Shown here in pieces: positions 2,291 through 63,500 of a stretch of 64,000 nt of DNA. The notes below the pieces were generated by a model. It made no database searches and was not told where the DNA came from. It worked only from the letters and a program-made list of their open reading frames with translations. Each line of letters opens with the position of its first letter. Within the stretch, counting starts at the first letter, position 1. Origin of the DNA: Lingula anatina (lineage: Eukaryota; Animalia; Brachiopoda); assembly GCA_051362555.1 (NCBI GenBank), contig CM120641.1, positions 29,766,401 to 29,830,400 on the forward strand, given 5' to 3'. A program made the translations under genes and the position numbers.

Positions 2291-3679
2291 TCATGAGTCC
2301 CATTTTTCGAAGTTATCCAATGGATAGTATTCTCTGTATTTAGAAACATGTCCCTTCATTTCTTCCATTTGTCTTTTTAAGTGCAAGGGCACCTCATCAT
2401 ACACGTCACTAAACATGAGCTCTGGGTTAGGTTTTTTCTTCTTCTCTGCCTTTTGAAACGCTTCCATTACCTGCAAACAAGATGTTTACAGTCAGGTAAT
2501 CTTATATAAATCAAAGGTATGAATTTTATGACAGTACTAGACAATACTTTTTTGTCACAAACCAATTACTAATTACTAGAAGGGAGACTGATGAAGATGG
2601 CCAATGGTCCATTGAAATATTTCATGTGAGTGATTCAATTTTGTAAATAGTTATAGACAAGAATCTATTCTACTAATATCATCCACCAAACTGATAAAAC
2701 TGTTTTAACATAAATGAACTTATGACATATTCACACCCAGAGCCACTGGAATATAATTTTTGGTTTTACAAATGATTTTAGCTATATAATGATCAACAAT
2801 TTTACAAACAAATTTTGTATATTTTTAATTTTTATTCAAATAGAATAGATAAATCACTGACAAAAAAAATCAAGTTATAAAGTGAACATTAATTTGGTTG
2901 AATTACTTAGAAAGAACATTTTTACCTGTTTTCTTGATTCTTTCATCCATTCCTTCTCCATGTCATCATTCCACCAGCCCTTGTTGACCATGTAGTAGCG
3001 TAGTCTGGATATGGGATGGTCCTGCTTGTCCCAGTAGTTGACCTCATCCACTGACCTGTACACTGTGCTGTCATCTGAGGTGCTGTGATGACCCAACCTA
3101 AAAGGTGGCAGTTTATACATATATACATTAATCTGTCCAAAATAATTTTCTTTAACAATGTCTGTGTCATACATATACATGTTCTGTGTCATTCATAATT
3201 CTCAAAATCTGAACCATTATTAGCAAAACAGAAGTTCATATACAACAAAAGGTTTTATTACAAGTGCATACTTATGTTAAGAGTATTACACAAAATTATG
3301 TAATCATTACTTAAATCAAGTAACTTCTACTTTCATTCATATATTTTGTTGTTCAATTTTCCACATAGCACAAACAAAGAAGGTTTTCACCTATATGTCA
3401 TGGCCTCTATAAGTATAGGTCTGCTTCCCTCAACTGCTAATTTTCTTGCTTCCTTTGTGACATTATACATTGCAAAAACATCGTTACCATCGACTCTAAC
3501 AGCTGCCATACCATAGCCTGGGCCACGTGCCGCTGAAATGTACCAGTTAACCTTCAACATGTGCTTCATTTGAAGAAATCGGACAAGGTTATACTATGTT
3601 CATAATACTATGTTTGATTGATAATATCTAAAAAGACAATTCAAAAACTTCTATGAGTTAACTTTTAGTCAGAAAGTAT

Positions 3680-3726
<47 letters not shown>

Positions 3727-6700
3727 CCTATCAGGACATGTACTTTTGAATAAAAATTGAATTCACATGGAAAATGTCATTATTCAGAAATATATGTTCA
3801 ACCCCTTTTTACAGATTTTGATTGAAATTGAAATTCTTACTAGAGTAATAATGACTGATTTTTTTCAAAACAGGGAACAACTAAAACTGGCTGAATCTTC
3901 AAATAAATAAATAAATTAATTAATTCATTAATTAATCAAAATAACATAAACAAGATATTACAATTTTAAACTTCAATAACATATATTTTTATGTTTTCCA
4001 TGTTCAAATTTCCATGTAAGAGCAATTCATACACCAATGGCGAGATTCAATTTAAGGAAATTGGCAATCTGCCGGGATAAGGTGTCAATTGAGATTTCCC
4101 CCCAAGCAATCAAGATTCATAACCAAATGCACCTAAATGTCAAACTATCAGTTCCAAATAGTTAAAGGGATAATAACTCTTCGTATGAGATCTATATTTC
4201 ACAATAAAACATTGTGAATAACTCACAGAAATATAATACAATATATTCTGTTTTACCACAAGAATGGCAGTTATAGCTATTATTCTGATATCTGAGCTCC
4301 TCTTTAGACCACGTGACCTCCATTGATGGCTATACTCTGTTAAAATTAAGTTAAAAGATTTTAACAAAAAAACCAAACTTTTTAGAAAAAAACCAGGGAC
4401 CAACTTTGAATGTAAAAATGGATTCATTAACCATTGGTAAGTATGGGAAAATTGTTGTTTACTCGAGAAAAATTCATTTTTTGGCAGAAACGAAGAGTTA
4501 TTATCCCTTTAAAAACTGTGGCTTATCCATTTATATAAGACAACATATTATTATCTGGGGCTTTTATCTTTAAAAATATTTTCTCATTTTGTTTCCCTTG
4601 GCTAAAATCATTTCAATGTACAACTGACATTGCACGGGGAAGTCCAACTCTAACTTATATTTCACATGAAGTGCTAGCTAGTATAGGCTCACATATTGCC
4701 TTGAGAAAGAAACAGGTATTCATTAGAGCAAGAGTGCCATGTCCAGTCTCGTCATGTCTCATGGTATAAAAATGTTGACACTACACATGCCATCTGTATT
4801 ACTCACCTATACCATCCCCTCTGTACTGATCTTTTGTTGGTGTAGAAATAGCATAACCATTATTACGACTGTAAAACAAAAGATATATATGCAGGTGTGG
4901 TGACTCTGTTGCTAAAACAACACAAATGTCTGCCTCTAACCAAGGATCCAATACAGCTCTAACTTATCAAAGAAAATTTACTTACCCATAAAAATTCAAC
5001 TGAAAAACTGCAGATATCAAAATAAATTAATCTTAAAACACATAGTGCCAAGACATGATTTATTAGCAAAAATGTGACTTAGAAGAGGAAAATTTGAGAG
5101 ATTTTATTTTGTGAATTTTGTATAACAAATGTTATTGTTTTAAGTGCAAGTCATTAGCTTTTCCTTTTAAACTAAACAGACCTTTTTATTAAACAAAAGC
5201 TATTTTTTTCTGAAACATGCCTGTTCTTCATTATTAAATAGGGGCAAGATATCATTCCAACCACAAGTTCTTCCTTTTTATGGCGGGTACTGACAAAAAA
5301 GGTTTTTTGTTAAACAAAACAGAAAGTTGGCAAATATAGTCTACAGACTGTGAACAAAATTGAAGCTGATGCAATTTTGATAACTGTACACTGCTGGAAC
5401 TAGATTTCAGGAATTTCAATGGCTTCCTTCTCAAACAAGTCTCAATTTATTGTGTTAGAGAAGATTAGGGTCATATTGAAGCATGATAGGTCAGGACATG
5501 GGGGCAGGTTGCAACTATTTTGAAAAATAATAAAATACTGCTTGATTTTACTGATTTTCAAACATGACCTGCAATTTGACCATACATATTTCAACTCAAA
5601 GTTATACATTTTGGAAAACATCATCAGCAGCTGATCAAAATCCTGAGCCTATATAAGTGTTGACATACATAAATAGTCAATCATTTCAAAATATACCATA
5701 TACATAGGTGCAAGTTTGAATTGTATGATGCTGTGCACCCTCATATGGCTTACCAAAAGAACAGCACAGGACAATCCAGGGTGGCAGCAAAGTTTAAAGC
5801 AGCATGTGCATCTCCCTCTGAGGCTGCTCCCTCACCAAAATAGCACATAACACAAAGTCCATTCTGTGCGCGCTTAAATGAGTATGCTGCTCCGGAAGCT
5901 ATGTAATGAACAACATACAAAAATATACTGACTTTGCATATAAATCTTGTAACATGTACAAGTAAAACATATATATATTCAGATATTTGCAAAGAAACAT
6001 TGTATTAATATCAAATTAATGCATTAAATATTCAGCCTTCTTAAAACACAATCATCTAATTCAATTCTCTGTTTACAGTAATTCTTACGTATTTTGAAAA
6101 TTTAAAAGTGCACAACACAATGATCAGGGGCGGACTGAGGCCGTCTTCTGGGTCTTTCAGAAGATGGTCAGATTTTCAAGTTTCCATTGACAGGTATCTA
6201 ATTTTTTCTGTCGGAAGACGGTCAAAAATGGAGGGTGGATCAACAAAGATAATTTAGAAGACTGTCAGGAAAAAGCTCTGGATCCGCCCCTGATGGTAGT
6301 GTAAAAAGTAATCTGAGATAAGAATGGGGTAGCAAGCACTGTGCATCATCTTGCATCCATCAACACTTTGACATTATTGCTGCTCTATAAGAGACAACAT
6401 TTTGCAAATGTCAAAGAATGAATGAAAGCAATAAATCCATTTACATGAGAAAAGCACATCAAAGATGGCACACATACAGACATTAAACAAAGGAATTAAA
6501 AGATACAGATTCAATTACATACAGGCAAGATGGGTATAGTAGCTTATGTTTGCTAAACTTAGTAGTTAAATTTGCCCTTGACAATATCTAAACTTTCAAC
6601 ATTCTTCTGCAAGAAAATTGTGAAGGAAATTCCAGACATTCTTAATACAGTCATTATGTTTTAAAGGCATTTTTGTGTGACTACTAGTAAATTAAATTCA

Positions 6701-7034
6701 AATCTATATTTTCAAAAAACTATGGTGACAACACAGAACAGACACTGATTATTAGAATAAATACAGGCACTATGTCTGTATATAATTATAGCAAGAATGA
6801 AATGAACAGTGCATCTAATGTGCACAAGAGATACAAATCATTACAACCAATTTAGTAATAGAACTACTGATACCTCACTATAATTGACCCATGCAAAAGT
6901 GTATATATAATGAGCACATTAAGCAATGAGAAGCATAATCAATAGTACATAATCAAGGTCAAATTGTAGTTATCAAGATTAAGCAAAGATTTGCACTTAT
7001 TTCTTTTCAAAAGTTTACAAAAAAGAAAAAGAAA

Positions 7035-7098
<64 letters not shown>

Positions 7099-10000
7099 AA
7101 ATTTGGCAACTAAAATTCAAACCAAACACAAATGGGGTAAATCAGTTGGAATTGATAATATTGATCATTGCAAAGCTTACCCTGACACATCTGAGTAGCT
7201 AATGTGGAGGAAATGGTAACAAAATGGAGATCTTTTGAGCCATAGTGCACTGGCATCTGTCGTCCCTTTGCACTATCTCCTATATTAGCATAACACTGGT
7301 CCATGAACTGCTCCAAGTGGAACCCCCTCCACATCAGCACCCCTTGGTGGAAACAAATATGCAAACTACCAGGAATTGTGTTTGGTCCAAATAAATACAT
7401 ACACAGAAATAAACCAATAAATAAAACAAAAATTATAGATGTCAAAACATTGTCAAAAGACAATGAATGAAACTGGTGAATCTGGGGTCAGCCTAAAATA
7501 GTTATTTGTTTAGTAGCTTAAAATTACTGCCTGAATTACATTGTATTTTCAATGAGCAGGGTAAGCCCAGAGAAAAGCCATCATGATTATAAGTCCGACT
7601 GGTCGTGTAAGCTTAAAGGTATCCTATCCAAGATTTTCCCACCAAATTAAATTTTCCTCAAAATTTTTTCTCTTCCTCATATAACAATGGGAACTGTCCC
7701 TGCAATTAGATTTTTATATCATTTTTAATCAAACAATTTAGTTCTTAATGACCACCAAGTCATACATTTCAGAAGGAAATATCAATACCAAGTACTTTTA
7801 CTTGATGGGTTTTTATCATTAGTATAGTCTGAATAGGGAAAAGATAAGTAGTTGTGCAGGATTTGTAGACATCGAAAATATCACATTTTAAAATGCTGAT
7901 AGTATACCTTTAAGCACCACCAAAAGAAAGGCAAAGCAAGCAGATCCCTGAAATATAACAATAAGAAAATAAAAAAAGCGTTTCTTGTCCTTGCAATCAC
8001 TGGTTATCAAAGCAGCATGGAATAATGTGTGCTTATTTCTGGGTTGGTGTGTTAAAGCACTAAGAAGCATAAAAAACAACAACAACAACAAAAAAAATGT
8101 CAAACTTCTTAACCTTGGGGAAGTTGCGTCCCTAGTGGCGAGGATATAGTGACAAAGTTAAACTCTCTTGAGCCATAGTGCACTGGCATCTGCCGTCCAT
8201 GAGCTGCATCGTCTACATTGCCGTAGCACTGAGACATACAATTGTACAGGGAGAAGCCTCGCCACAATAAAACCCCTGTTAAGGATGAGCCAAAAGTTAT
8301 TCAGCAAGATCTATCCTTCAAATATTCAAGTTATGTACATGCCGGCCACTTTAAAGATGGAGATTATTTCTGGAAGTACTCATGAAAGATTTATTTTACA
8401 AGAATACTAAAATAATCACTCCACAAAAAAAGTAAGTATTCATTTCACAAAAAATATACAAAGTAATCATTTGATAAATAACAACAATCTTCATGAACTA
8501 AACAGTGAAGTAGGCAAATATACAGACACTCAACAGAAAAAAAAACTAATTCCAAGGGATTGGGTTGGACCCTCAACCAAAGCTAGATTTTGGAGTGATT
8601 AATTAGCAATTACAATTCAGCCAATTAAGTATAATAAGTAAATGAAAAATCATTAATATTAATGAGAACGCAGCAGCATTGAGGGGGGGGGAGTATGCAC
8701 TCTCTGAGTGCTTTCCTTGTTTATGCAATGGAATCCTGCTGCATATACAGTAGTAAACCTACAATGTTAATGCATTGGAAGTGTAAGATACGCAATGTAC
8801 ATAGCGCACAGAGGTGAATACAGATGTGACAGACAGACAGGTGAAAATCGACAGTAAACATCTAGTGCAGTATTAATAAACAGGAGTATACAAAGTAAGG
8901 ATTTTTAATTTAATTTATAATTTGTTACATGCTAGTTAATTATACCTTTAGTCACAGTTTGTATTCATTTAATTTTTTTTTATTTATTTTATTTTTGGAC
9001 AGCACCTGATGATCAACAAGTTTCCAAAGCACTCTACTTGAATTACAAATGAACTCTTTATCTACAGAATCAGTGCAGGTTTTCCCAGTAACATACAAAA
9101 TGGCCCGAATAGCAAGTAGATTGCTTGTTAAATGGTTTCTGTGAGAGATATCAACAACAAATCACTAATCCAGCAGGTGGCCTTTTTGCCTGCCAAAACC
9201 AGCAGAATCCAGTCTATGATGGAAAACTTCTGGCACAGACAGAGAAGTGTGACGTGGCACCACAACATTTAATGTAATTAAAATTATTGAAATTAAAATT
9301 TACTGAAACATAAAAATAGTTTGGCAGTTATATTGTTAACAAATGTGTCAGACAGTGACAGTGACTACACTGATATATACAGGTAATCAGAATATATACA
9401 AACACTGAGTGTATGTATATAAAAACTCAAAACTGGTCTATTTCTAAAAAAAAAAAAGAATACATACGTTTAATAAAATTAACATCTTTGCAGCAAAAAT
9501 TTTTCAATTCTTACAACTAAAATTGTTTTTCTATTATATTTTTTTCAAAAAGCAAATATTCTAACAACCCCTCCCTCCCCCTAAAAAATACTTCCAAAAA
9601 ATCTAAATGAATGTAAATCATACTATACTTGTATTTCACAAAGCCGTTTTATTTAAAACTTTCACTTTCAGTAAATCCGATTTACTGAAAGTTCATTTTG
9701 TATAAATCCACTGAATATCTCCACTTGATGTATGTTTTGTCCAGCTGCTCTGCTGACTTGACTACATCTGAGGAGGAGGTGGCTGTGATGGGGCAGTCAC
9801 AAAGTCTACCAGTTGTTGTTGCTTCTGGGATTTTTTGTGAAGAAAAGTCATCAAACACAGGTATTCTGTGGATCCATATAAATTGAACTTTCTTTCCATA
9901 TTACTATATTACTATCCGGTGGAGTTATTTGGGCTCCTATATACGATTTATTTCACTTACCTGCTTCCCTGTACTGTCCAAACACAAGGTCTTTGTCATT

Positions 10001-11055
10001 CAGAGCTGCTGCTGACCCAATATGTGTAGCCTCTTCTCCAAAGTTTGTCATGTAAAATGAAATTCTACCTTGCCGCTGGGATTCATATAAAACTCTGTCC
10101 ATGGTGTTTAACAAAGTCATTTTCCTGTACATATTTGTTACCATCTCCTGGCTCAGCTGTAATAAATATATATTCATTTCATTTAAAAAGGGTGAATCAT
10201 AAGTTTATGATTTTCTTCCAAATTTATTCATCAAGGAAACATTTTATTACATTTCAAAAAAATTCTCATTCATTCTCATTATAAATAAGGCTTCCATTAT
10301 ATGTCCTGTTTCTCTTGCTATGCTTATCAATGTTTTTCTAATTACAGATATGTGATGATTTTTATCACCGTCTCTGCTACTACACTATAATAATTTATCA
10401 CTGCTTTAACAAGAAACTTTCAACCTCACTGATCAATGACATTACATCACTCTAATACATCAGCTCTCATTATTTCTGATTGTTTTGTAAAAACACAGAA
10501 AAATCAGTTAGTAAAGTATATCATATTCAATATCATATTAAAATAACAGAAACAAAGTCACCACATAATTACATTTTTTAAACATAGAAAAAGAAGGATG
10601 TATTGAATCCATTTCTTATATGAAAATTATTGGAAGATCATCATTTACTGGTATATAGCACTGCACTGCATATGAATATAATTGATAAACTGAGAGTGGG
10701 TGGTCTAGGGAAGCTTTATCTTTTATGTACTTTTGCCAGAGTTATTTAGGAGTGGACATGGGTCTAACACATTCATTACTCTTTTTCACTGGACATCAAC
10801 TCAATATGGGACCAGGGTCCCATATGTTCAGGGACCAGAGGATTCCTCTACCCCTGCAACAAGGACAGAGCTTCAGCTCCTCAGGATTTCAAAGTCACAT
10901 TTGGGAAATCTAAATTTGTGAAAAATGAAAAATTTGCAAAACACTTCATATGCCTTAGAGTCAAGCAGGTTTCTACTCAAAATCAAGCTTCCTTTCAGTC
11001 CTTGTTTATCATTTAAAGTCACATGGTTTTCCTTCCATTGTGTTTACTATCAAAA

Positions 11056-11106
<51 letters not shown>

Positions 11107-14100
11107 AACCCAGAAAAGTGCAAGGTGACACCAACAGCACCACCAACAGGATACATACAGCAAAAACAGATGCAGGTGAGGGTTATATGTCCAGACACAT
11201 TGTGTCTGTCCACAAAATGTCAACACGATTATAATCCTATTATACAAAATGCACACTTTTAAAACATAAAATCATATTGGTGTGAACCATAATCATGGTC
11301 TTTTTTTCTTTTTAATTCACCTGTGGATCTTGGCTCTGGTCGAGAATCTTGCCCTCTCTGTTCATCACCCTATACACTGGAATCCCATCATAGATGTCAG
11401 GTTGTGTAAATTCGAGCTTTTCACTCCAGCTTCTTGTTTTAGAACCAGGAAACTGTGGCCTGTCCTCAATGTAGCTCTGTTTAATGGGAGCCGTATGCTT
11501 TGGAGGAACTGATGATGTTTTCCACTGAAAATAATTTGAAGGTCATCATATTATACACTTTAACTGCTAACTATAGGGTTAATTTCATGTATCAACTTTT
11601 TTAGTATAATGCAAAGTAGTACAGCTGCAATTACATCATCACTGCTGCAAGAATCCAAATTTAATTAAATATTGGCAATGATGCTTTTTCCATTTTGACC
11701 TTTTTATGTAGAACCTAAAAAGGGTAATTTGACTGCATCATGTCATGCAAAGACCAAATTCAGTATCTTTGCACATAAATTTTAGACTGCCATAATGATA
11801 TGTGAAAACTTGGATCTATGCTTTACTGACAAACAATTCATTTACATAGCTAGAATCCCAAGGTTGTTTTTTGGCCAGTTCTGACAAGTTTTTTTTAACC
11901 CTCATCATTACAATATCATTTGGTTGATTACGTTTGGTTGATCAGGTTTACCAAATTTGAGCATCCACTGCAGGCATCCATTGCAGGTGTGCAAACTGGT
12001 ATTTATTTAATTTTAAATGACTTTGTATTCATGCATTTGCACGTCCAGTACATATCAGAATCATCAATAGGAGTGCTAAGGCACGAGTTTTGTGCTATAA
12101 GAATGCCATCATCAAGAACTGCTATTACTGTGAGTGGTATTTTGGTATTTGGTGATACTCTGGTCTAAGTGTTAGCTAGGCAAGCCTTGAGATTTCGTCT
12201 TTTCATGAAAAAAACTAAGAAGAACACTAACACTTAAAATAGTATGTGTAATAAGTTCGAAGTACACTTAAAATAATATGTGCACGGAGGAAAGACGAAT
12301 CTTGGGTTTCTTCATTTCAAAAGTGCCCATAAAAGTTAGCGTGGCTGCCAAATTATTGTCTGATATTTTATGCTTCGATAAAACGGCGATGATACATGTA
12401 CATTTACTAGTCTACCATGCAGATTGCAATAATTCTTACAGTCGGTTACAGGATTACTGAACCCAGAACGAGGCTCTCATTTTGGACTAGGGTAAAACAT
12501 TGGCTTGCGCCCATTACTCTCAATGTTAAATTGGTGAACTTTGATCGTTCATATCAAGCAGACCAGAGGACAATTACTTGTGACAACCACTTGGTTATAT
12601 TCACTAGAGTTTTTAGCGTCAGTCAATGGGCCTCAGGAGGATTTTCTAGAGCTGATGGTGATTTTATCAGCGATAATACCAACACTCCTCCAACGGGCTG
12701 CAATTTCAGTTTACACCAGATGCATGTTGTAATAGGTATATTTTATCGTCTGTATCAAGTATATCTGTGAACAAATACGCATGACAACTGTTTGTTGATA
12801 TTCACTTACGTATTTAGCTCAGGGAAATTGCCATCAAAAGGATTTTCTAGCGTCAGTGGCGACTTTATCAACGATGCTAGTGTACTATTTTTAAAGCAAT
12901 TTTTCCTACTGGGACACTATGACCTATACGCACCCAGTTCATTAATATACAGTCAGAATTCTTGTATAATAAAATCATTATCTAAACAAAGAAAACTATT
13001 ATATTCATATTGCTTTTAGAGGTCTCAGTTTGAAAGATTTGATAAGCTAGAAAAGGAGGCTTGGGTAGCACTGCTCAGTCCTGTCGTGTTCGAAGCAGGT
13101 GTCTCAAGTAATGCAATTAATGTGCTTTCAAAAAGAATTTTAATTTGTCACTGCTGTGTTTTTCATTAAAATTTATTTTTCTACTGTTGTCTGGATTATG
13201 TTTGAAGAGACTATGAAATACTTTTTTAGCTTTTATAATTTCTGCAAAAACGTAAAAAATTTCATTAGAGGCCTGCCAAAATTATTTTTCATAAATAGAT
13301 TCATCCATAATTATCCAATTAAACAAAAAGTTTTGAATGAAAGCCTCACTTTAATCTTTATAAATTGTCAAAATCTACAAATCATTTTTGACTCTGATGC
13401 TAAATGAAGTTCATGGTGTTTTTTTTTTTTTTTTTTTTAGAAAATAATATAAATTTATACAGTAGTGATTTCATTTTCATTTTTAGAACATCAGACTCAA
13501 TATCACAATACAAAGTATGATCTATAAAAATCTGAATTGAATGCATATTTAACCGTCATAAATCACTTTGAATTCTTAAACAAAATGCAAAATGAAAGAT
13601 ACAATAAAACTTGTTGACTTTAAATTTACATTTTATTTCTATCTACATGTATAAGGTATGTAAGAAAGGAGTTATAAAATTCCTTGACATATGCTGTAAA
13701 GTTCCATTCTGAATTAACATTTGTACAGTAAAAATGAATTAGAATTTCTATATCACACTTAAGCAAATATAACAGTAGTGTCCAATCCATAACAAAAATT
13801 TGATTGCTGAGTGTTTTTTTCTAATTGCATGGGTTAATAGATTTTACTCAGCAAACAGCTCCACCCGCTTGTTTCTTCCAGTTAATCATATACTGGAGTA
13901 TGTGCATTGATAGCCTTTCTTGCGTTCTATCCTCTTGATGAAAGTGTGCAACATCACAAAGATAAGGTATTACTTATCTGTTCCAATAGCACATTATTGC
14001 CATTTACACACTTCATAGTACAATAATTAAATGATTTATTGAGTATGTAAAAATTTCATTCTGTCCATGATCTCAATTCTGTCTGCAGCAACATGGGTAT

Positions 14101-14920
14101 TAAAAAATTACTAGAAAAAATTGTTCAAATTCTCAAAATGGCATGTACTTTCAGTAATAAAATCAGACTAGTAAATTGTCATTAAAGCTTTCTTTCAGCC
14201 CCCCTTTTCAAAGACAAATACAATGACCACACCTGTGAAGATCATATCTGTTTTAGTTCTATTTGCTACAATGACACCAACTGATAAGATCACTTTCTTC
14301 CCATGAAACCACCTCAAAGGGCTCTATGATTGTTTGAGGATCCAGGTAAGTTCTGTTCAATCGCTGTCAGTGGACAGATTCATCCGATAACAAAGCCATT
14401 GGAACTTCTTACCTGAAAAACAATCAGAACTGTAACTGCAGCTCATATAATTACAGTGTAAGAGAGGTGCATTTCAATCACTGATAAAATCGGCATCAAT
14501 GCTAGAAAAGGTCCTTGATGGCCATTTCCTGACACTAAATACCTATGTTGATATAATTAAACAGTTGTCAAGTTTAATTATCTACTGGTGTGAGAGATAC
14601 AGACGATCAAAGTTGATCATTTTAACATGGGGAGTAATGGAGCTTACAGATTGTTTTACCCTAGTCCGGGCGTGGCGGCCATCTTGTGACGTCATGCCGA
14701 CTGTAAGAATTTGGTGTGCATTTAGTATTTACAGTGAGTCTTCTGTTGCATTTATTTTTGCTTTGCCCATTTATGCTTTGCCCATAACGCAAACCAAATC
14801 CCCTAATTCAAGGTTATATCTTACTCTTTTTGTAGCAATCACGCTCGTGGATCGAAATGACCATGTGTCTGCACATCTATAATGCTTGAGGATGTGCAGT
14901 GCCCTGCACGTCGAAGCCAT
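2291..14920 (-). CDS. BCKDHA: Branched-chain alpha-keto acid dehydrogenase E1 alpha subunit, mitochondrial (9 coding exon positions, ~452 aa; exon 4 present as two alternative copies)
   Basis: Coding exons in transcript order: 14825-14920 ([32 protein letters not shown], transit-peptide-like, least certain), 11321-11524 (..[17 protein letters not shown]), 9961-10156 ([26 protein letters not shown]), 8114-8275 or 7181-7342, 5754-5898 ([16 protein letters not shown] motif), 4807-4868 ([11 protein letters not shown]), 3391-3532, 2926-3097 (GHHSTSDDS phosphorylation loop), 2291-2470. All junctions are GT-AG with matching phases; CDS is 1359 nt. Confidence 0.96.
3682..3721. repeat. (AAT)n microsatellite
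   Basis: Direct reading. Confidence 0.95.
4166..4508. mobile_element. Non-autonomous TTAA-targeting DNA element (Kolobok-like), copy 1
   Basis: ttaa|agggataataactcttcgt ... acgaagagttattatccct|ttaa; internal sequence shared with 45953-46300 and 35641-36008. Confidence 0.8.
6125..6292. mobile_element. MITE family A (CAGGGGCGGA TIR, 5-bp TSD)
   Basis: caggggcgga...tccgcccctg flanked by atgat/atggt. Confidence 0.78.
7032..7095. repeat. Poly(A) followed by (AT)n microsatellite
   Basis: Direct reading. Confidence 0.95.
7181..7342 (-). CDS. BCKDHA: BCKDHA alternative exon 4b (162 nt, phase 1-1): [54 protein letters not shown]
   Basis: Lies within ORF 7110..7463; acceptor ccaccaag|, donor CAGG|gtaagc. 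Confidence 0.92.
8114..8275 (-). CDS. BCKDHA: BCKDHA alternative exon 4a (162 nt, phase 1-1): [54 protein letters not shown]
   Basis: Hand translation of the reverse complement gives an open frame with acceptor ttaacag| and donor CAAG|gttaag. Same length and phase as exon 4b. Not in the ORF track. Confidence 0.85.
11053..11107. repeat. (AAAT)n microsatellite
   Basis: Direct reading. Confidence 0.95.
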
Positions 14921-15316
14921 TATCATCAACACGGGTACTACGTCATGAAAGGTGTTGTTACTGTTGGTTGTCAATTTGTCTTGTCTTGGTAAACGTAGAT
15001 TTTGCTGCCATCTATTAGTGGCAAGATCTCGAATAATGGTGACGTTTGTTACAAATCTGGGAAAATATTTCACACAAAAAAGCTGTCATTTCGATATTGA
15101 ATTTTAAGTTGGAGAGTGTTGTAAAAACTCTGGCGATTGTCTGGTAGAGCTCTGCAAGTACTGTTAAACTCACGGAAAATGTCAAATGTTACCTAGATCT
15201 AGAAGTCGGAAGAGATTTGGGAAGGAAAACAAATGAACTGTATTGACGCTGCGGCAGCTTTGTCATATTTATTTAGAATTCTTAGCAGCGTGTTGAACCG
15301 GTGTCTGACATAAATA
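14921..15316. promoter_or_regulatory. Probable bidirectional promoter and 5'UTRs of BCKDHA and DESI2
   Basis: Only 396 bp separate the divergent start codons at 14920 (-) and 15317 (+); CpG is locally more frequent than in the introns. Confidence 0.65.
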
Positions 15317-32705: not shown

Positions 32706-35700
32706 TCAAACTTCGATATCTGGATCTGACTGCCGACCAGTCTTTTTTAATTTGTCTTCATTCTTTAACTTCGGTTTTTCTGTTCTTGTGTGCCACACCA
32801 ATACCTGGTTTGAAAAATGCATCAATATGAATAAAACAGCAATTTATACTCGGGCCCGTAGCCAGCAATTTCAGAAGGGGGGGTTCGTTTTCTGAAAAAG
32901 TGGACCTTTTACCATAAAATCCTCAAGTACATAAATCAAATTTTACCCAGAGTGGACCTTTTCCAAGCAAAAAGGGTGGTTCTTTCGAACCCCCCGAACC
33001 CCCCCTGGCTACGGGCCTGATACTGTGCACTGACAAACTATAGAAATCAAAATGCTTCCAATATTTGAAATTGCAGTTTAATTAAGAGAAAAAAGAATCC
33101 ATCATCTGTAACTCTTGTTCTTGAAAATTACCTTACCAATGCTGCAGCATTTATAATCTGCCCCACAACCCCCAGGAGCAGATGGAGGATGCCTTCTGGG
33201 TCTCAGAAGATGGCCAGAATTTTTCAAGTTAACATAAACGTGCATCTAATTTTATTCTGTCAGAAGATGGTCAGAATTTAGAGAATGGGTCAACAATGAT
33301 AATTTGGAAGGCTGTTAGAAAATAGCTCTGGATCTGCCCCTGACCCCCTACCTTTGAGCAATTTTCAGCTTTAGGTTCCAGATCTTGCATGGTGACCAGA
33401 TGTTTCAACAGCTCGGACTCCTGGTAACCTCTGGGCACCCGGATTTTGAAGTTTGCTTGTGGATTCTTTAATATCAGCTGTAGATTTATTGCAAAGCCTG
33501 CCATATCCATAGCAAATGGTCGCTCTGGTTTCCAGTATGTGAACCAGCCTGTTACCTGGATACAAAAAACAAGTAATACATATTCAAACAAGTTGATCTC
33601 AATGATTAATGTAAACAATCAAGAAAGCACAGATTTAGATGTATCCTTATCTGAAAATAATCTCTTTTCTAACAGATGAATAAGTCTATAATTGTTTCAC
33701 ATTAAAATAAAAAGTTTGTTGCAAATAGATATTTACTTAAGGACCAGAGAGGCAATAATGCCTCCTGGGTATATACCACCAACTGGATTAGGTGTATAAA
33801 AGGGATAATAAATAACCAAATAATATATAACCAAAAAGAGTTATAGAGTTTACAATACTATAATGGCCGGCTGACACAACCATGTATGGGACACAAAAAT
33901 GTATAGACTTATGAAGAATATAAAATGCAAGCCCTAACCCATCCACAAGATAAAAAAGTGATTGATCACCAGAGTTGTGTTTGTTCCTCCTTTCAATTTC
34001 TGTAAAAACAAACTTTTTACTTTTATAATTGAGATAACTCACAAGTTAAGAGACTAAGTGTACTGCCCACATACAATCATTTTTGTTTTATTTCTTAGAG
34101 AACACCACTCTCCCCCCAAGTAAAAAAGTTCAAACGTACATGTATTGCATCACTAGATAAAGCAATCGGTGGCATAAAAAATTCCCATGCTGATGGGATT
34201 TTTCTGAATAACTTAATAGCAACATTCCAAAATGTATGCTTTAAGTAACTCATAATAATAAGGGAGTATTTCTGTTTGTGTAACATATCATTTCAAAAGC
34301 TGTACATATATTATATGTACGGATTTATTTCAGATGATAATTACACTCAATCCCACAGTTATCCTCCTCTGCTGCTGAGCCAGGGTTTAAGGGCAGGTGT
34401 AGGGGCAGGGTAGTTGTGTAAGAATAGACAGCTTGATTGGGTGAGATCTCACAAGGGTCTCTTCTTCAATTCTGAACCCTGTGATATATCAGAGGGAAGC
34501 AACTTTAAACATTTTTTTTCTATTTGAAACAAGACTTACCTTTCCATTGTGGACCACTGGACTTTCATACCTCAATGCTCCCACCAGCCCCACTGGCCAA
34601 ACAGACACTTTCTTGGTGGACCTCATCTAAATGCAAAAAAAAAGGCGTATTTGAAATACAATTCCTTAGTTCTATAAACGGGGGCGTCTCGATAGTCCGA
34701 AGGTCCATTGGTCCGAAGGTTCATTGGTCCGAAGGTTCTATAGTGAACCATCGGACCAATGAACCTTCGGACTATCACTACTGCCCCCTATAAACAGATG
34801 TGTATATTCATTACCTTTAAAATTACAGTTCAAGGTCTGTTTAAGTAACTTTAAATATATGCAAGTGTCGCCTGTACAATGAAATATTAATGGGTACCTC
34901 ATCAAATAACTTGAGATCATAAGTATTGTCATCATCTGCAAAATAAACAACTCCCTGCTTGTTGTCAACATCAAGATTGTCCCTTAGCCATTTTAATGCA
35001 ATGTTTCTCTGCAATACTCCTCTGGGTTTCAACCAGTTTGGATCATTTTCTTGTAATTTATGGTCTTCTGGTGTAGCTATATTCAAGTGTGTGTAAATCA
35101 GTCCACAGTTTCTGAGAAAATTAGTGACAAGAGGGGTCTTTTCTATTGCATCTTCTACCACTATCCAGTGAAAATTTCTCACATGAAGAAATGTTTGTGA
35201 TAATCTTGTAAGCTCTGCTTTTTGAACACATCTTGCATAAGTGGGAGTAATGGCATAAATAGTAGGAAGGTCTTTAATGAAACTCTGTTGTTGTTTGAGC
35301 ATTGACACAGCACTATTTGAGTAGGTTTTGTTGAGTTCTTTCTCAAGGTGCAATAGTCTCTCCTCTTGTAATTGCAATCTTCTCTCCTTGGCAGAAAGTT
35401 CCAATACTTTTTTTGATACCCACTTCACTTCTTCATCAATGTCCATGTTGCTGCAGAAATATCCTTCAAATGATATACAAAAATATTTTATTTCAAACTA
35501 TTTAAAGTTAAATATTTATACATATATTAATTTTGGTTGAATAAAATACAAAGATACTACAGCTAATTTAATATTTAATAGAAACAAAAACAAAACTGTG
35601 TAAAATACTTGCCTCTTAACTAATGCAAGTGGTTACTTAAAGGGATATACATGTAAAACAACTGTTCGTTTTGATCAAATAACTTTTCTCCTGGGATAAA

Positions 35701-39800: not shown

Positions 39801-42800
39801 TGAAAATTTTTCAAAGTTTAGAAATTGTATTTTGATATGTAGTCAAGAGAAATCCTGTAGGTGCATGGTAATTATAGGAATAATTTGAAAATTTAGATAT
39901 TATATTTTGATTTTCCTTTTATTTATTTATACCTTCCTACCTGCCTGAAAAAGAAAGTGTTCAATGCTTGTGTGCTGCCGGCAATCACCTATGGTTCAGA
40001 GACCTGGGCACTGAATGCCTCCATGGAACACAAGCTTCAAGTAGCTCAGAGAAAGATGGAAAGAATTATGTTGAACATCAATCCAAGAGAGCGGAAAACG
40101 AATGTATGGTTACGTGAACAGACCAAAGTTAAGGACGTACTGCTCACAGTTAAAGAAATGAAATGGAGGTGGGCAGGACATGTCAAAAGAATGAAGGACA
40201 ATAGGTGGACAATCAGGCTTACAGAATGGACCCCAAGGTATGGACAAAGAAAAAGAGGAAGGCCGGTCAAACGATGGAGGGATGAATTAGATGACTACTG
40301 GAAGTCTTGGAAGAAGAAACCTTGGCCAAACTGGAAATCTGAGGCTCAGGATAGGAAACAATGGAAAAAGCATGCTGAGGCCTTTGTCCAACAGTGGAAC
40401 ACTATAGGCTCTAAATGATGATGATGATTATACAGGATGGCCCAAAATGTTTCCATTCTGATTGTACACTATTTAAAATCTGCATACTTTAATAATTATT
40501 TTCAGAAAAGTGTCACAGAAGCATGAAGTTTTTATTGGAAACGAAAAGTCTCCAATTTTCTCATTATTTCAGAACACAGGTCATTATCAGCCTATGCACC
40601 CTTTCTCTGAATTTCATTTGCTACATGGTGCATGGATTGAGCATGTCATTAAAGAAGGATATCTATTTGTAATTATAAGATTATATTGGATGTGGAGGGT
40701 GCCCTTTTTGACATTGTTTGATATTATTTTTTCATAGTAATGTAATTGTATTTCATCATTAATGTGTAAAAATAAATGAAATGAAAAAGTTTTCTTGTTT
40801 TGTATGTACAGTAAACTGTCTTGTAAATGACAGTAAGTTGCCCTCATTTACATTCAAAAAGTCCTCGAAAAGTATTTGATTTTAGAGCCTAAAAATTTGT
40901 AATATGTTCTGTATGAACCATCATTTAATGCTTAGGCTTCTGGGGAATGTAAAGAAGTTCTTTATTTATATTTATATTTCTTTTAATAACACATTCCAGG
41001 CTACTCAATATTTGTCATAACTGGGCACCTACCAGACTGCGAGGCTGACCAGCTATTACAACTGACCCCAGCTGTCCAGCCAATCAAGCCAAAGCTGATC
41101 ACAGAATCTCAAGATGCCCAAGCTGGCAGTAGTGCAGAACAAGATGATAGTGCCAGATATCAGTTTAGGCAGTCAGACTTGGAGAAGGCCCTTGCAGAAA
41201 GTGCCAAAACACTTGAGGGAACTGAGGAAGATGACCTCCAAAAGGCCCTAAAGCTTAGTGTGGAAGGTGAAAGGGTTTATTTTGAAATTGATCTATGTTT
41301 TTATTGTTAAATATGCTGTAACATTTACTATTAAAGGTTCATGGAGGTCTTGTGTGGATTTGCTTTATTTTGCATACTCCATTTCTGATTAATCATTAAA
41401 AGAAAAAAAATTGTTTAAAAAGGTTGGATGCAAAATGAAATTATTTCCTTCTTTTAAGACACCACTGGCTAATAACACCTTGAAACACAGTGTAAGGGAA
41501 TGAAATCGAGCATTAATTAATGTTGAGCAGTACTCACTATTGTAGGGCCTAACTTGGACCTATTTAAAACTCTAGGTCTTCACATCTTTTAAATGTGGGA
41601 CCCAAATACATTAGCGACAGACGAGTAAAAAAAAATCAACTTAAACCTGATAACTCTTCATTGCAGGTATACTACCAGGTAGCAGTGAGGATACTGTTGA
41701 TGGTGGTGCTGTTGAAAGTGACGTTCATTCAGTCACAGATGGTGCCGATAAGAACTGTGATACCAGTAGTGGAAATAACATAGTCACAGCCGAGGAGATA
41801 CGGCTACGGAGATTAGCATATTTAGACAAACCTGAACATGGAACAGATACTCCAGGCAAGTTTGAGTGCAAAGCTACAAGTTCTTATAACTTGACATACA
41901 GTTTTATTTATTTCATATCCAGGCAGTTAGAGCTAAGAGGACTGGTTTTTAGCTGTAACTTGAAAAATGTGCAACCTTATCCCTGGCATGGAAGTACAAC
42001 TGGTGTCAGCACACAATTTTCACACACCTTACAGGATTTTTGAGTTTACAGTTCTTTCTATGACAAAAAACATGTTAATGTTTGATTTTTCATTATGCTC
42101 AAGTGTGCAGTGGATTATGTTGTTTTAATTTTTTCTTTAATTAATTAGTTAATTTTATTGGAGTGGTAAAATTGAACATTAGTCACATGGTTTAACTCAT
42201 ATTTATGCCAACTTTTTAAGCATGTTTTCAATATGTTAAATGATGGAAAATGATGAATTGACAATTGGTGTTTTATGAAAAAACTAGTATTATGTTGTGC
42301 AAGAATGTATAAAAGAACTTCAATATAATAAGTGGTCTAGGTTTTAGTTGCTTTATTATCATGGCACTTGCACTGGTACATTATTGGGAGGTTGAGACTG
42401 TGCCTCTGAAAAAAAGACGCTCTTGTCCACAGGGTTTTCTTTTTCTACAGGATCATAAAACTCGTTCACATCGTCCTCAATCTCTATGACATAGTCATCA
42501 CTCTTAACTATATCGCATTCTGCTAAAATATTGTCCAACTTGCCAATAACAAGAGAGTTAATGTATTGCGCCACCTTGCATCTGGTTTGTGCCAGTTTGT
42601 TCTGGCATGTTCTCACAAGACTGCTCTGTGGATTGCCACAGGTGACCCCATTGCGCTGGCCTGTCACACGTTGTCTTTGTCCTGCCCCTTAACACACATC
42701 TGACATCAGACCTCCACCAGATTCTATCAGACACAAGGTTTTTCCACAAAAAAAAGCAGAATTCTGCATTTTTTAATTCAATTCTGATGGTTCCTGAGAT

Positions 42801-49420: not shown

Positions 49421-50950
49421 TTAAGTAGTGATATCGGTCTTAGGTTGTTTAACGTACGAGTTGGTGGGCTTATTATGTTTTGGTAGAAGGACGATTATAC
49501 CCCGGGTAAGAGTTATAGGTAGTTTGTCTTTTTCGTATGCCTCGTTTATACATCTTATTAAAAAACTATTCAGTTCTTTCCAAAAGAATTTGAAAAATTC
49601 GTAAGTAAACCCATCGGTACCTGGGCTCTTTTCATTTTTCGTTTGTCTTAATACTGTATAGAGTTCAGCGTAGCTTATCTCTCCTTCGAGTGAGGATGCT
49701 TCGGCTTCGGACAATTTTGGAGTTTCAATATTTTCCAATCGAGTTTTTATGTCTACTGATTCGTGATTTTGTTTCTTAAATAAATTTTCGTAAAAGCGTG
49801 CGGTTTCTTTGAGAATCTCATTTTGTTCAGTAAGAATATTTCCGTTATCTGTTACCAGTTTAGTTATCGACTTTTTTGTAAAATTGCAATTTCCCAGTGC
49901 CAAAAAATATTTTGATGGTTTTTCTCCGTATTCGATCCATCTTTCTTTTGATCTTATCATTATACCTTTTACTTTTATTTTTCTTATATTTTCCAGTTTC
50001 ATCTTTTCCTTATTTATCATTTCAAGAATTTCTTCTTTTTTGTCTAATTCGGCCTCATTTTTAAGATCATTCTCTAGATCGTTTATAGTGTTTTCCACTT
50101 GTTTTTCCTCAGACTCTCTTTTCTTTTTTTATCCTAGCACCAAAAGCAATCGTTTTCCCCCTAATTTTCATTAAAAGAGTTTCGAGAAATAGCCCATTGC
50201 TTATAGTTAACTGTAAAGAATGCCTGTCAATATTCAGTATGTTATCTCTATTATAGGGCGCTGCTGCATACTCTAAGATAGTTTCATTGATTATCTGCTT
50301 TACCATATCGACATACTCACTTTCATATAAGTGGGAGTTATTAAATTTCCAAAAACCTTTTCCGTGTTTAATTTTCCTTTTTAACTGTAAGTCCAGAGTA
50401 ATAATGGACTGGTCACTCTTATAACCTGGAATAATCTGACTATCTTCGATAAAGTTTGTAATGGTTGTGGAAACAATAAAATAATCTAACCTCGCCTGTT
50501 TGAAAGGCGTAGGCTGCCGCCATGTATACTGTCTAACTTCCTTATGCATTTCCCTCCATATATCATGCCAGTTATGCAAGTCCATTAAGGTATAAAGCTG
50601 ATTAGAGGCCTTGGGGTTATTTTTATGTTTATAGTTATACGTGTCCTTCTCTTGGTTTAATACTAAGTTAAAGTTCCCACAAATAATATGATCCTGATTT
50701 CCAAATTTCATTATTATCTCGTGTATTTTTAAGAAAAATTCAGGTGAATCATTATTGGGACCATACAGATTTATGAGTGAAATGTCTTTTTAATCTACTG
50801 TCATACTAAGAGCAATAAAGTTTCCGCTAGTGTCTTTCTCAACCTCTTCAATTTTATATTCAAAGTTATTGTTAACCAGTATTGCAACTCCTCTTGAGTT
50901 AGAGGTTCCATAAGATACCGCGAATAGAAAATAGATTTTTAGAAAATAGA
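49421..50950 (-). mobile_element. Decayed L1/Tx1-clade LINE ORF2 fragment (APE endonuclease, linker, start of RT)
   Basis: Motifs SNSRGVAIL, NLYGPN, ICGNFN, YTW, ARLDYF, SDQS, WKFN, RSK..W.E.GEKPSKYF, KSPGTDG..YEFFK. In-frame stop at ~50790, frameshift at ~50105, and truncation before the RT core. Confidence 0.92.
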
Positions 50951-60500: not shown

Positions 60501-63500
60501 GATGAGAACTTGGTTTGACTTATTTTGCCTCGTTTAAAGAGAGTCATTGATGACACTGAAAGTGAAACAACTGACAAAAAAGCAGCATCATAATGAAGCT
60601 GTTCACAGGCTTGCCTGTTGCATGTTGTCATGAAAAAATTAGGCCTACAGACTCCCAAGATTTACATTAATTTTATTTGAATGTTTGGCACAATTACAAA
60701 ATAATCATGAACCAATAATTTTTTTTTTCTTCAGATCATCCGCAAGTCATCTGGAAAAGAGCTAGCAGGTAAAGTTTATCTATTAATCATCTAAATCAGC
60801 CAAATGTGGAAACTGTTATCTGTATATTGCAAGTACCCACTCAAAGGGATTCACTATTGCTCCAATCAAGGTTGTTATCAGCAAGGCTCTCCTGACTGAA
60901 GTTTCATCACCCTAATAACACAGGTGCCCTTCAGCTTGGGCAAACAACCCGGCTGTGCATGAAGAAATGAAAAATAATTACGTTGGTGGACAATCGTCTT
61001 TTGAAAAGGTTTTTACCCTGTAGGGCCAGATATATCAGAAAATGACAGTGAGGACGATGACAAAGACAGGTACAGTGATCAGAATATATATACAGAACCA
61101 TACAGTGTCTGTATATAATAATGAATTTCACAGGCTTGACAGCTAGCCATTACAAAAACTGCAAGCAACATTCTATTTGTACTGCAAACACGACTAGGCA
61201 AAACATCAACTGACACTGTTTGCAAGTATCATTTTATATCAAGAGAAAACTCTTAGGTCCTCCTAGCATCAAACTGACTGCAACACCAATTTTACAGGAA
61301 AAAATTAATGATTTAAGTCCCAAGACATGCAAAGACTGTGACCCCAAAAGAACTGTTGACCCCAAAAGAACCTCTTCCATCATCACCATGCATACCTAGA
61401 TCTGTTAAGAAGCCAAAACAAAATGCTAGGTCACAGTTAAAATGGTTGGGGCTTTCCGTTACCTTTCCTGATCATACACTTAAATCAGTCAATAAACCTT
61501 TCATCAGTGGAGACAGTTCATTTGGATTAGAACTAAGTACTGAAAGTGGAAAGAAGTGCTGGTAATAAAGGCCGGTTTTTCATTTTCAATAGAAAACAAG
61601 GCAGCAAAGCTGTCAAATGTACAGACAAAAAGCAGGAAATAACAAAATAGGCTACTGTCAATTCTGATGCAAAAGTACATTATGTTAAACTGCAAATTCA
61701 ACATCAAATTTTAATTATGCTCAACAGGTAATACCAATGTAAGTAAAATGTGAAACAAGCATAAAGCTTCAGGCCCATGGGAGTTCAAGTTCACACTTTG
61801 AAAATGTAAAACTTCCAGAAAAAGAAGTCAATTAGACTGCTTTTCCAACTCAGGCTGCATTTCAGTCCTGTATTTCTTTTTTGAAAGTTTGGCAATCATA
61901 AGTAACATGGTTTTCCCATAATGGTCATCATGGCAGCAGCACCCAAAATTGTGTTTTCTTCTATTCTGATGCAATATTACATAATGGTTAACAGCATAAT
62001 GACAATCAATTTTTAATAACAAAATATATGTATCATGGATTTTCAGAAAATGTGACTAGCCTGGGTCTTCAAGCCTGTGGAACTTCAAAGTCACACCTTG
62101 AAAATGCCAATATGTGAAAAACTAAATTTTCACAAAAAAAAAAAAAAAACTGTTTATCTGGCAGATTGCATTGCCTACTGAAGCTGTATTTTAGTCCCAT
62201 GTTTCTTTCCTGTAAGTTTGAGAACAGTAAGTGACATGGTTTTTCTTAAAAGGTAATCATGGGAGCAGTGCCCAAAATAGTTTTTTTTCAAATTTTGATG
62301 CAATGTTACATAATGTTTAACAGCATAATGACCATCAATTTTTAATAAAAAAATATTAGTATCATGGATATTCAGAAAATGTGACTAGCAAAGGTCTTCA
62401 GGCCCATGGAACTTCAAAGTCACAACTTGAAATACCAAAATGTAAACAAGACAGCACTGTTCTGAAATGTTTTTTTCCCCATTTTTAACAATTTTTAACA
62501 TAAAACAAAATTAACAGTTTACTGCCATTTTTACATGATCAACTAAGAAAATTGATGAGATGAGAAAAGTATCAACAGAGCAGTGTTAAATGTCCAATTT
62601 CTTCCATTCTGAGATTCTGAACATAGTGGATGATTGAATCTGACAAACTGCAATGATATGAGTTTATTTCCATTTTTGAAACTTTATTACACAATACACG
62701 ATAACATGTTTACCATCATTTTTACAAAATCAACTAACAATGTTGTAAAGATGCAGGAAATGTCAAACAAACACTTTCACATATCTTATTAGTTTAATAA
62801 TGAGACTGTTGACATGCCTAAAAATTGAATCTGAGGAAATGTGAAAAAACAGCATACCTTCTAAAATAATGGCACGATTATGCTGATTTACGAACTCAAC
62901 CTGCATTTTAGTAAAATTGACCACTCCTGTGACTTTCATGACAATTGGCCCATCTGTTTTTCTTATATTGTGTTTACAGTGTTGCATATATGCTGAAAAG
63001 TGTAAAAAACAGCATAACTAGTAAAATGGTGGCCCGATCATGCCGATTTTCGAACTTGACCTGCGTTTTAGTAAAATTGATTACTCCTGTGAGTTTCATG
63101 ACAACAGGTCTATCGGTTTTCCTTGAAATGTGTTAACAGTGTTGCATATATGCTGAAAACAGCATAACTACTAAAATAGTGGCCCGATCATGCCGATTTT
63201 CGAACTTGGTCTGCGTTTTAGTAAGACTGATTACTCCTGTGAGTTTCATGACAACAGGCCTATCGGTTTTCCTTGAAATGTGTTAACAGTGTTGCATATA
63301 TGCTAAAAAGTGAAAAAAAACAGCATAAATTCTACAATAATGGCCCGATCATGCTGATTTTCGAACTTGACCTGCGTTTTATGAATATTAGTCAGCTCTG
63401 TAAATATAAAGCCAAAAAGTAAAACTGTCTTCCACTTATGGTGTTAACGCTGAAAGTGCACGGCGACGGCGACAGCGACGGCGACATGATCGGCGACGGC

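What the first reader, a model, noticed from the sequence alone, without database searches (positions are those of the whole stretch)
7181..8275. Tandemly duplicated active-site exon in BCKDHA: candidate mutually exclusive splicing switch producing two E1-alpha isoenzymes
Seen in sequence: two exons 771 nt apart, each exactly 162 nt, phase 1-1, bounded by AG/GT and free of stops, encode the same segment. 4a is [54 protein letters not shown] and 4b is [54 protein letters not shown]; 35/54 residues are identical by hand count. Many identical residues use different codons (GTT/GTG, TTA/CTG, CGA/AGG, ACT/ACC, ATA/ATT, ACG/ACT), there are no indels, and I saw no similarity in the flanking introns. 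That pattern fits an old duplication with both copies kept under selection, not an assembly artefact or dead copy. Established (from recall, to be verified): this segment matches the 162-nt human BCKDHA exon, which carries the GRQMPVHYG segment near the substrate pocket and the SSPLATQ loop that binds the structural K+ ion and the thiamine diphosphate pyrimidine. Mutually exclusive exons tune enzymes such as PKM and OGDH. Inference: including both copies would repeat a core structural element, so they are probably mutually exclusive. The differences in the cofactor loop (SPLGTQLP vs STLATQMC) could alter K+/ThDP affinity, keto-acid preference or redox sensitivity. I am not aware of such a switch being described for BCKDHA.
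Basis: partly seen in the sequence, partly recalled or inferred. Interest (0 to 1): 0.92.

Follow-up and report, generated by a model that had tools for sequence, protein, structure and literature searches.

The report
Swappable cofactor-loop exons in BCKDHA
The gene for the branched-chain keto-acid dehydrogenase alpha subunit of the brachiopod Lingula holds two old, intact copies of the exon for its potassium-binding loop, RNA uses mostly one and rarely enters the other, and another, unidentified organism holds four copies of the same exon, so the gene likely makes a major and a minor enzyme form whose functional difference is untested.

Summary
The window is Lingula anatina BCKDHA. Two 162-nt, phase 1-1 exons lie 771 nt apart, with 35/54 residues identical and synonymous sites saturated. 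RefSeq already models both as 454-aa isoforms X1 (4b) and X2 (4a).

RNA shows 4b is the major form: 56 exon 3→4b junction reads against 3 exon 3→4a reads in four runs. The 4a→5 junction was not seen, and the intron around 4a is under-spliced. 4a looks constrained as protein: 4 of 5 listed population differences are synonymous.

The proposed loop switch is weak. 4a keeps all 21 near-invariant residues, and the loop variants are common in single-copy orthologs; only 4b's Pro169→Cys is unique.

New here: metagenome loci L016/L017, from an unplaced organism (likely an animal), carry four intact, conserved tandem copies of the same exon. These form their own clade, so the duplication likely recurred.

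Verdict: a new member of a known kind (OGDH/PKM-like), function untested. No paper on it turned up, and this scan had no earlier BCKDHA note.

The parts
14825..14926 (-). BCKDHA exon 1 (coding part, transit peptide)
   Evidence: tblastn of RefSeq X1/X2; boundary read from the sequence
11321..11524 (-). exon 2
   Evidence: RNA joint 10156-11321
9961..10156 (-). exon 3, common upstream exon, donor GTAAGT
   Evidence: RNA joints to 4b and to 4a
8276..9960 (-). intron between exon 3 and 4a, under-spliced in poly(A) RNA (patchy depth up to about 6, against near 0 in other introns)
8114..8275 (-). exon 4a, minor copy (RefSeq X2, XP_013400822.1); CAG acceptor, weak GTTAAG donor
   Evidence: 3 junction reads from 2 starts in run X9; 4 synonymous and 1 non-synonymous population difference
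8054..8113 (-). U-rich tract right after the 4a donor (62% U at +6..+60, against 24-45% in the other 8 introns); read-through gives Gly then a stop at once
   Evidence: enhancer role inferred
7343..8113 (-). 771-nt intron between the copies; 32 AG dinucleotides, AG-free zone only 21 nt; covered by reads in all four runs (patchily in X5)
7181..7342 (-). exon 4b, major copy (RefSeq X1, XP_013400821.1); AAG acceptor, GTAAGC donor; carries the unique Cys at human position 169
5754..5898 (-). exon 5, common downstream exon
   Evidence: RNA joint 5898-7181 in 4 of 4 runs
4807..4868 (-). exon 6
3391..3532 (-). exon 7
2926..3097 (-). exon 8
2291..2470 (-). exon 9 (coding part, to the stop codon)

Best explanation
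Lingula BCKDHA carries an old tandem duplicate of the exon that encodes human-numbered residues 117-170, and the two copies are likely mutually exclusive: 4b is the default exon and 4a a rare, likely cell- or condition-restricted alternative that would give a second, same-length, likely active E1-alpha. Shown: the anatomy, dominance of 4b, use of the 4a acceptor, constraint on 4a, and conservation of the near-invariant loop and pocket residues. Inferred mechanism of choice: splice-site competition. 4b has a near-consensus donor and is defined by default. 4a has a good acceptor but a weak donor followed by a U-rich tract, so it would need a U-binding enhancer of the TIA-1 type (by analogy with OGDH). 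Slow resolution of this choice would explain the under-spliced intron. Inferred effect on the enzyme: modest second-shell tuning (stability, K+/ThDP affinity or Cys-based redox sensitivity through Pro169/Cys and residues 125-142), not a new substrate range. The same exon was multiplied, likely independently, to four copies in another organism (L016/L017).
For: Both isoforms are 454 aa and differ only in this segment. Exon 3→4b joints were seen in all 7 distinct runs laid: X1 5, X4 6, X7 20, X9 13, X8 17, X2 21, X5 5. Exon 3→4a had 3 reads from 2 starts in X9, and no 4a→4b joint was listed. Of the 5 listed population differences in 4a, 4 are synonymous (binomial P=0.011). Reads over the neighbouring intron carry 8-10 other differences each, against 0-3 for reads over 4a. 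4a keeps 21 of 21 columns that are at least 97% invariant, and 4b keeps 20 of 21. AlphaFold2 models are alike (pLDDT 82.6 and 82.7, pTM 0.82), and the 4a model matches human E1b. Pfam E1_dh scores are 359 and 352 bits. L016/L017 have four AG/GT-bounded copies, with 3 differences in 639 exon nt against 19 in 516 intron nt (P=9e-5), and the copies form a clade at 96/90.
Against: The 4a→5 junction was not seen: it is not among the 15 of 48 joints shown, and no loose end at 8114 is among the 24 of 26 shown. Depth over 4a (0.3-5.5) is no higher than over the intron beside it, so most 4a reads come from unspliced RNA. The selection test rests on 5 sites, and only 40 of 99 differences were displayed. 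Only 6-30% of each run was read, the tissues are unknown, and the runs were linked by species label only. No enforcing mechanism was found. No second brachiopod was available. L016/L017 have no RNA evidence and no taxon.
Confidence: 0.55

Rival explanations
1. One reading: 4a and 4b are regulated isoenzymes with clearly different K+/ThDP affinity, keto-acid preference or redox control, and 4a dominates in some tissue or stage.
For: 4a reaches 3 of 16 junction reads in X9 but none is listed in three other runs. The copies are less alike (35/54) than most spiralian orthologs are to each other (median 44; 13 of 253 pairs at 35 or less). 4b's Cys169 occurs in 0 of 260 orthologs. The exon was also multiplied in L016/L017. 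OGDH exons 4a/4b are a precedent (PMC7969005, abstract and sections).
Against: The loop variants are common in single-copy orthologs. Each copy has only 3 rare residues, and 73 of 285 single-copy segments have 3 or more. The pocket and K+-site residues are identical. No run had 4a dominant.
Confidence: 0.2
2. 4a works mainly as a splicing decoy or poison exon. Its acceptor captures some transcripts, its weak donor fails, and the retained intron gives an immediate stop, which would lower BCKDH output.
For: Only the 4a acceptor junction was seen. Depth continues from 4a into the downstream intron. Read-through after 4a gives Gly then a stop. This intron region alone is under-spliced.
Against: A decoy would not need amino-acid constraint, yet 4a keeps all 21 invariant residues and its changes are mostly synonymous. 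RefSeq models a 3-4a-5 transcript, although I did not see its support.
Confidence: 0.15
3. 4a is a redundant duplicate that is slowly decaying, and its splicing is noise.
For: Inclusion is very low. 4a has a long branch (0.72) and is further from spiralian orthologs than 4b (median 38 against 42 of 54; 4b is closer in 20 of 23).
Against: Synonymous sites are saturated against 4b, yet there is no stop, indel or lost invariant residue. Recent population differences are mostly synonymous.
Confidence: 0.08
4. Assembly artefact (two haplotypes or paralogs collapsed in tandem).
For: No DNA run or second assembly was checked; no genome is held.
Against: The copies are only 66% identical in DNA. RNA reads from other populations cover both exons and the intron between them, and exon 3 splices to both.
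Confidence: 0.02

Closest known systems
[quoted passage not shown]
   Same: A tandem-duplicated exon pair in the E1 component of a mitochondrial 2-oxoacid dehydrogenase complex, with a U-rich tract after the first donor.
   Different: OGDH exclusion is enforced by distant branch points 25-41 nt from the donor, a size-restricted intron and a long AG-free zone, and it changes Ca2+ sensitivity. Here the intron is 771 nt with 32 AGs, co-inclusion stays in frame, the segment is the K+/cofactor loop, and no functional difference is shown.
PKM1/PKM2 and tandem duplicated exon substitutions in general (10.1101/292813, PMC9741552, PMC9013439, PMC5740500; passages read)
   Same: Same-length homologous exons that substitute one segment of a metabolic enzyme, with the core ligand residues mostly conserved.
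   Different: PKM has validated isoforms with a defined allosteric switch. 'BCKDH' occurs 0 times in the main text of each of these four papers; their supplements were not searched.
RefSeq Lingula anatina XP_013400821.1 (X1) and XP_013400822.1 (X2)
   Same: These are exactly the 4b and 4a isoforms.
   Different: They are automatic predictions with no description, usage estimate, selection test or comparison.
Human BCKDHA / E1b alpha (PDB 1DTW and relatives)
   Same: The same segment (residues 118-170) and the same 3' exon boundary; Thr166 (p.Thr211) lies in the K+ pocket.
   Different: No either-or isoform pair of this exon was found in the vertebrate or other animal proteins examined.

Membership tests
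Mutually exclusive tandem exons (criteria of PMC5740500) | Neighbouring homologous exons of the same length and phase | tested here: met
Mutually exclusive tandem exons (criteria of PMC5740500) | Junction from the upstream exon to the second copy, bridging the first (3→4b) | tested here: met
   5-21 reads in each of 7 distinct runs
Mutually exclusive tandem exons (criteria of PMC5740500) | Junction from the first copy to the downstream exon, bridging the second (4a→5) | tested here: inconclusive
   Not among the shown joints or loose ends (33 joints and 2 loose ends hidden; threshold 3 reads). It is present only in the RefSeq X2 model.
Mutually exclusive tandem exons (criteria of PMC5740500) | No junction joining the two copies (4a→4b) | tested here: inconclusive
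   None listed in 4 of 4 runs, but 4a use is too low for power
Mutually exclusive tandem exons | Both copies under purifying selection | tested here: met
   pS 0.76 against pN 0.22; 4 of 5 listed 4a differences synonymous, P=0.011; no 4b difference among the 40 shown
Functional isoenzyme switch (OGDH/PKM type) | Regulated use and different enzymatic properties | not testable with these tools
   Tissues of the runs are unknown and there is no assay
OGDH-type steric exclusion | Distant branch point under about 50 nt from the first donor, with a long AG-free zone to the second acceptor | tested here: not met
   TTGAC at +11 exists, but 32 AGs lie in the intron and the AG-free zone is 21 nt
Frame/NMD-enforced exclusion | Co-inclusion shifts the frame | tested here: not met
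   162+162 nt stays in frame
Docking-site/selector exclusion (Dscam type) | One intronic site able to pair with a selector beside each copy, conserved across species | tested here: inconclusive
   The best shared helix was 10 bp for both upstream and downstream docks, against 9-13 in 40 shuffles each. Cross-species conservation was not testable.
BCKDHA (E1-alpha of branched-chain 2-oxoacid dehydrogenase) | E1_dh domain, fold, and closest solved relatives are BCKD alpha chains | tested here: met
   PF00676 at 359 and 352 bits; Foldseek top hits are human E1b, 66% identity (4a model only)

The most novel reading that the evidence does not exclude
The K+/thiamine-diphosphate loop exon of BCKDHA is a recurrent, unrecognised splicing module in invertebrates. 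It was duplicated independently in Lingula (2 copies) and in another lineage (4 copies, L016/L017), so one gene makes branched-chain dehydrogenases tuned to different ionic, oxygen or redox conditions. In both clusters one copy has lost the near-invariant Pro169 and another carries Gly165 (noticed after the fact). Further hidden copies may lie unannotated in molluscs, where the Pro/Thr163 variants are scattered across the tree.
Probability: 0.25. Interest if true: 0.72.

Novelty: new member of a known kind. Interest (0 to 1): 0.45.

Why it matters
From general knowledge, BCKDH is the committed step of leucine, isoleucine and valine breakdown, and its known control is phosphorylation of a single E1-alpha. 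A splice-level choice of the K+/cofactor loop would be a second layer of control, parallel to OGDH 4a/4b. It is directly testable with two recombinant enzymes. The natural variants, including Cys at the near-invariant Pro169 two residues from Gln167, fall in a segment where human maple syrup urine disease variants lie (p.Thr211Met). Finding the same exon multiplied in a second lineage suggests this is not a one-off. If the enzymes prove equivalent, it is an ordinary minor alternative exon that RefSeq already lists.

Tried and rejected
- No genome is held for the window, so no second assembly or genome-wide paralog check was possible.
- The run search listed no indexed RNA holder; nine raw-read runs were offered by species label. 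Seven were laid (X1, X2, X4, X5, X7, X8, X9); X3 and X6 were not.
- One search was crowded by repeats at about 4160-4510 and 6125-6293, so 33 of 48 joints were hidden. One search avoided the repeats but left out exon 5, so 4a→5 could show only as a loose end.
- Steric branch-point exclusion, frame/NMD exclusion and docking/selector pairing were tested and not supported. A duplex-energy version timed out.
- Isoform pairs elsewhere: 30 clusters were looked up. Among 314 testable proteins of 416, 283 pairs had at most 3 flank differences, and only the Lingula pair had a strongly divergent segment (19/54; the others at most 8). This covers annotated proteins only.
- No other brachiopod or phoronid protein was recognised (tree).
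- The exon tree has 53 columns. It neither groups 4a with 4b nor rejects that grouping (p-AU 0.39), and it does not reject 4a with L017 copy 1 (p-AU 0.19).
- L017 could not be placed: best identity 74%, no starred group.
- Structure models do not separate the isoforms.
- Paper searches for the K+ ligand list and substrate-pocket residues found nothing usable, apart from the Thr166 passage. The other residue roles are recalled.
- A search for Lingula physiology linked to branched-chain metabolism gave no relevant listing.
- Five look-ups in earlier scan notes found no BCKDHA exon case.
- No complex prediction was run.

Full report
Identity and anatomy. The window is from the brachiopod Lingula anatina: exon 4a matches RefSeq XP_013400822.1 at 100%. 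The cluster look-up shows a second 454-aa RefSeq isoform, XP_013400821.1, which carries 4b instead. Outside the 54-residue segment the isoforms are identical in the flanks compared (0 of 120 residues differ). The gene runs on the minus strand from 14926 to 2291 in nine coding exons plus the alternative copy. RNA joints confirm the introns between exons 2-3, 5-6, 6-7, 7-8 and 8-9. Both copies are 162 nt and phase 1-1, with 35/54 residues and 107/162 nt identical; pS is 0.76 and pN 0.22. They match human E1b alpha residues 118-170. The human variant c.647-1G>C is a splice-acceptor change, which places a human intron at the same 3' boundary, and p.Thr211Met affects the K+ pocket (PMC11570613, passages). 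The 45-residue offset to mature numbering follows from the alias Tyr438/Tyr393 (PMC8102797, passage). The human 5' boundary was not verified; that this is human exon 5 is recalled.

Splicing. Nine raw RNA runs were offered by species label. Seven were laid, each read to only 6-30%. In one search (X1, X4, X7, X9) the 3→4b joint had 5, 6, 20 and 13 reads and 4b→5 had 11, 3, 11 and 10. These totals (44 and 35) are close to those of constitutive joints (47-61). Only 15 of 48 joints were shown, the weakest with 10 reads in total. One search (X9, X8, X2, X5; window 7110-10200) listed two joints only: 3→4b with 13, 17, 21 and 5 reads, and 3→4a with 3 reads from 2 starts in X9 and 0 in the other three. 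That is 3 of 59 overall and 3 of 16 in X9; zeros may hide counts under 3. No 4a→4b joint was listed. Loose ends at 7181 read as exon 5 in all four runs. No loose end at 8114 was among the 24 of 26 shown, so 4a→5 is unobserved. Depth over 4a was 3.8, 5.5, 0.3 and 1.7, against 24, 23, 19 and 3 over 4b, and was similar to the intron next to it. In one search, bins in the introns after exons 2, 5 and 6 had depth 0-0.6 and bins in the 4b-5 intron 0-1, so the 3-4a-4b region is specifically under-spliced. By the criteria of PMC5740500 (passage) this is a candidate with one criterion met and two open. RefSeq's X2 model implies 4a→5, but I did not see its support.

Is 4a alive? Runs X8 and X9 come from a divergent population. 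Of the 40 differences shown (of 99), five fall in 4a: four synonymous and one Ser→Cys at a variable column (binomial P=0.011). Reads over the adjacent intron carry at least 8-10 other differences each, against 0-3 in 4a. Exon 3 shows six differences (four synonymous) and 4b none among those shown (Fisher P=0.034). 4a keeps all 21 columns that are at least 97% invariant in 285 ortholog segments, and 4b departs only at Cys169. AlphaFold2 gives near-identical models (pLDDT 82.6 and 82.7). Foldseek places the 4a model with human E1b. 4a is the more derived copy: median identity to 23 spiralian orthologs is 38/54, against 42/54 for 4b.

Does the swap change the active site? Among 260 distinct ortholog segments (chosen by similarity to the Lingula sequences, so biased), position 163 is Pro in 202 and Thr in 58. 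Position 165 is Ala in 180 and Gly in 51, and position 168 is Met in 171, Ile in 49 and Leu in 40. The exact 4a loop occurs 12 times. M146, H149, S161, S162, L164, T166 and Q167 are the same in both copies. Their roles as substrate-pocket, K+ and ThDP contacts are recalled, except Thr166; searches to confirm the rest found nothing usable. Each copy has three rare residues (4a: Tyr127, His142, Phe155; 4b: His125, Ser140, Cys169), which is within the single-copy range. Oddly, the only unique loop change, Pro169→Cys (0 of 260), is in the major exon. I therefore infer modest tuning at most.

How exclusion would be enforced. Co-inclusion stays in frame. OGDH-type steric exclusion needs a branch point under about 50 nt from the first donor and a long AG-free zone (PMC7969005, sections 17, 24, 29). 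Here the 771-nt intron has 32 AGs and a 21-nt zone. A docking/selector search scored at shuffle level. What remains is asymmetry. 4a has a CAG acceptor and a weak GTTAAG donor, followed by the most U-rich donor flank of the nine introns (62% against 24-45%). 4b has an AAG acceptor and a GTAAGC donor. I infer default definition of 4b and enhancer-dependent use of 4a, by analogy with TIA-1/PUF60 control of OGDH (abstract). Read-through after 4a hits a stop at once, which keeps a decoy reading open.

A second lineage. In L017 the copies lie at 813-977 (165 nt, one extra codon), 1129-1290, 1442-1603 and 1821-1982. Each is AG/GT-bounded in phase 1-1 and free of stops, between single upstream and downstream exons. 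The introns between them are 151-217 nt, and all four donors are non-consensus. L016 and L017 are 94.6% identical overall but differ at only 3 of 639 exon nt (2 synonymous), against 19 of 516 intron nt (P=9e-5). Copies 2-4 share 37-42 of 53 residues. The four form one clade (96/90) apart from the Lingula copies, so the expansion is likely independent, though the 53-column tree is weak and does not reject alternatives for 4a. The organism is unplaced (best identity 74%); it is likely an animal, given its intron positions and best hits. It has no RNA data here, so mutual exclusion there is inferred. Among annotated proteins no other either-or pair was found (314 proteins), and no other brachiopod was sampled.

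Prior knowledge. Searches for BCKDHA with mutually exclusive exons (2 listings, unrelated by title and abstract), Lingula with mutually exclusive splicing (9 listings), and BCKDHA with exon-duplication terms (none of the top 25 contains BCKDHA) found no description. The main texts of four papers on such exons do not mention BCKDH. Their supplements and subscription journals were not searched, and the MetazExp database (listing only) may hold the event. Both Lingula isoforms are in RefSeq as automatic predictions.

Verdict. The feature is real and old, and probably a mutually exclusive pair with a dominant 4b and a rare but constrained 4a. It works like OGDH 4a/4b or PKM in layout, but not in the enforcing mechanism, and no functional switch is shown. 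It is a new member of a known kind, made more interesting by a four-copy cluster of the same exon in a second lineage. Interest 0.45.

Noticed in passing
L017 813-1982 and L016 285-1464: Four intact tandem copies of the same BCKDHA exon in an unplaced organism (likely an animal), conserved relative to their introns; all four donors are non-consensus.
   Followed up: partly
window 7181-7342: No nucleotide difference was listed in exon 4b between divergent populations, against six in exon 3 (Fisher P=0.034); this may reflect splicing elements inside 4b.
   Followed up: partly
window 7343-9960: This intron region has poly(A) RNA coverage while other BCKDHA introns have almost none, suggesting a detained or slowly spliced intron.
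   Followed up: partly
RNA runs X7, X8, X9 against the window: Reads under the same species label carry 8-10 or more differences per read in introns and many fixed exon differences, which suggests a strongly divergent population or cryptic species.
   Followed up: no
window 33274-35497, minus strand: Exons of a glycosyltransferase family 43 gene (PF03360).
   Followed up: no
window 40990-42040, plus strand: Exons with a weak ubiquitin-interaction-motif hit (below the Pfam cut-off); from recall they resemble an ataxin-3-like gene.
   Followed up: no
window 49424-50789, minus strand: Fragments of a LINE-like endonuclease/reverse-transcriptase ORF (weak PF14529 hit).
   Followed up: no
window about 4160-4510, 6125-6293, 12400-13000 and 61800-63450: Dispersed repeats and tandem repeat arrays; the first two attract hundreds to thousands of RNA reads from other loci.
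   Followed up: no
   Followed up: no
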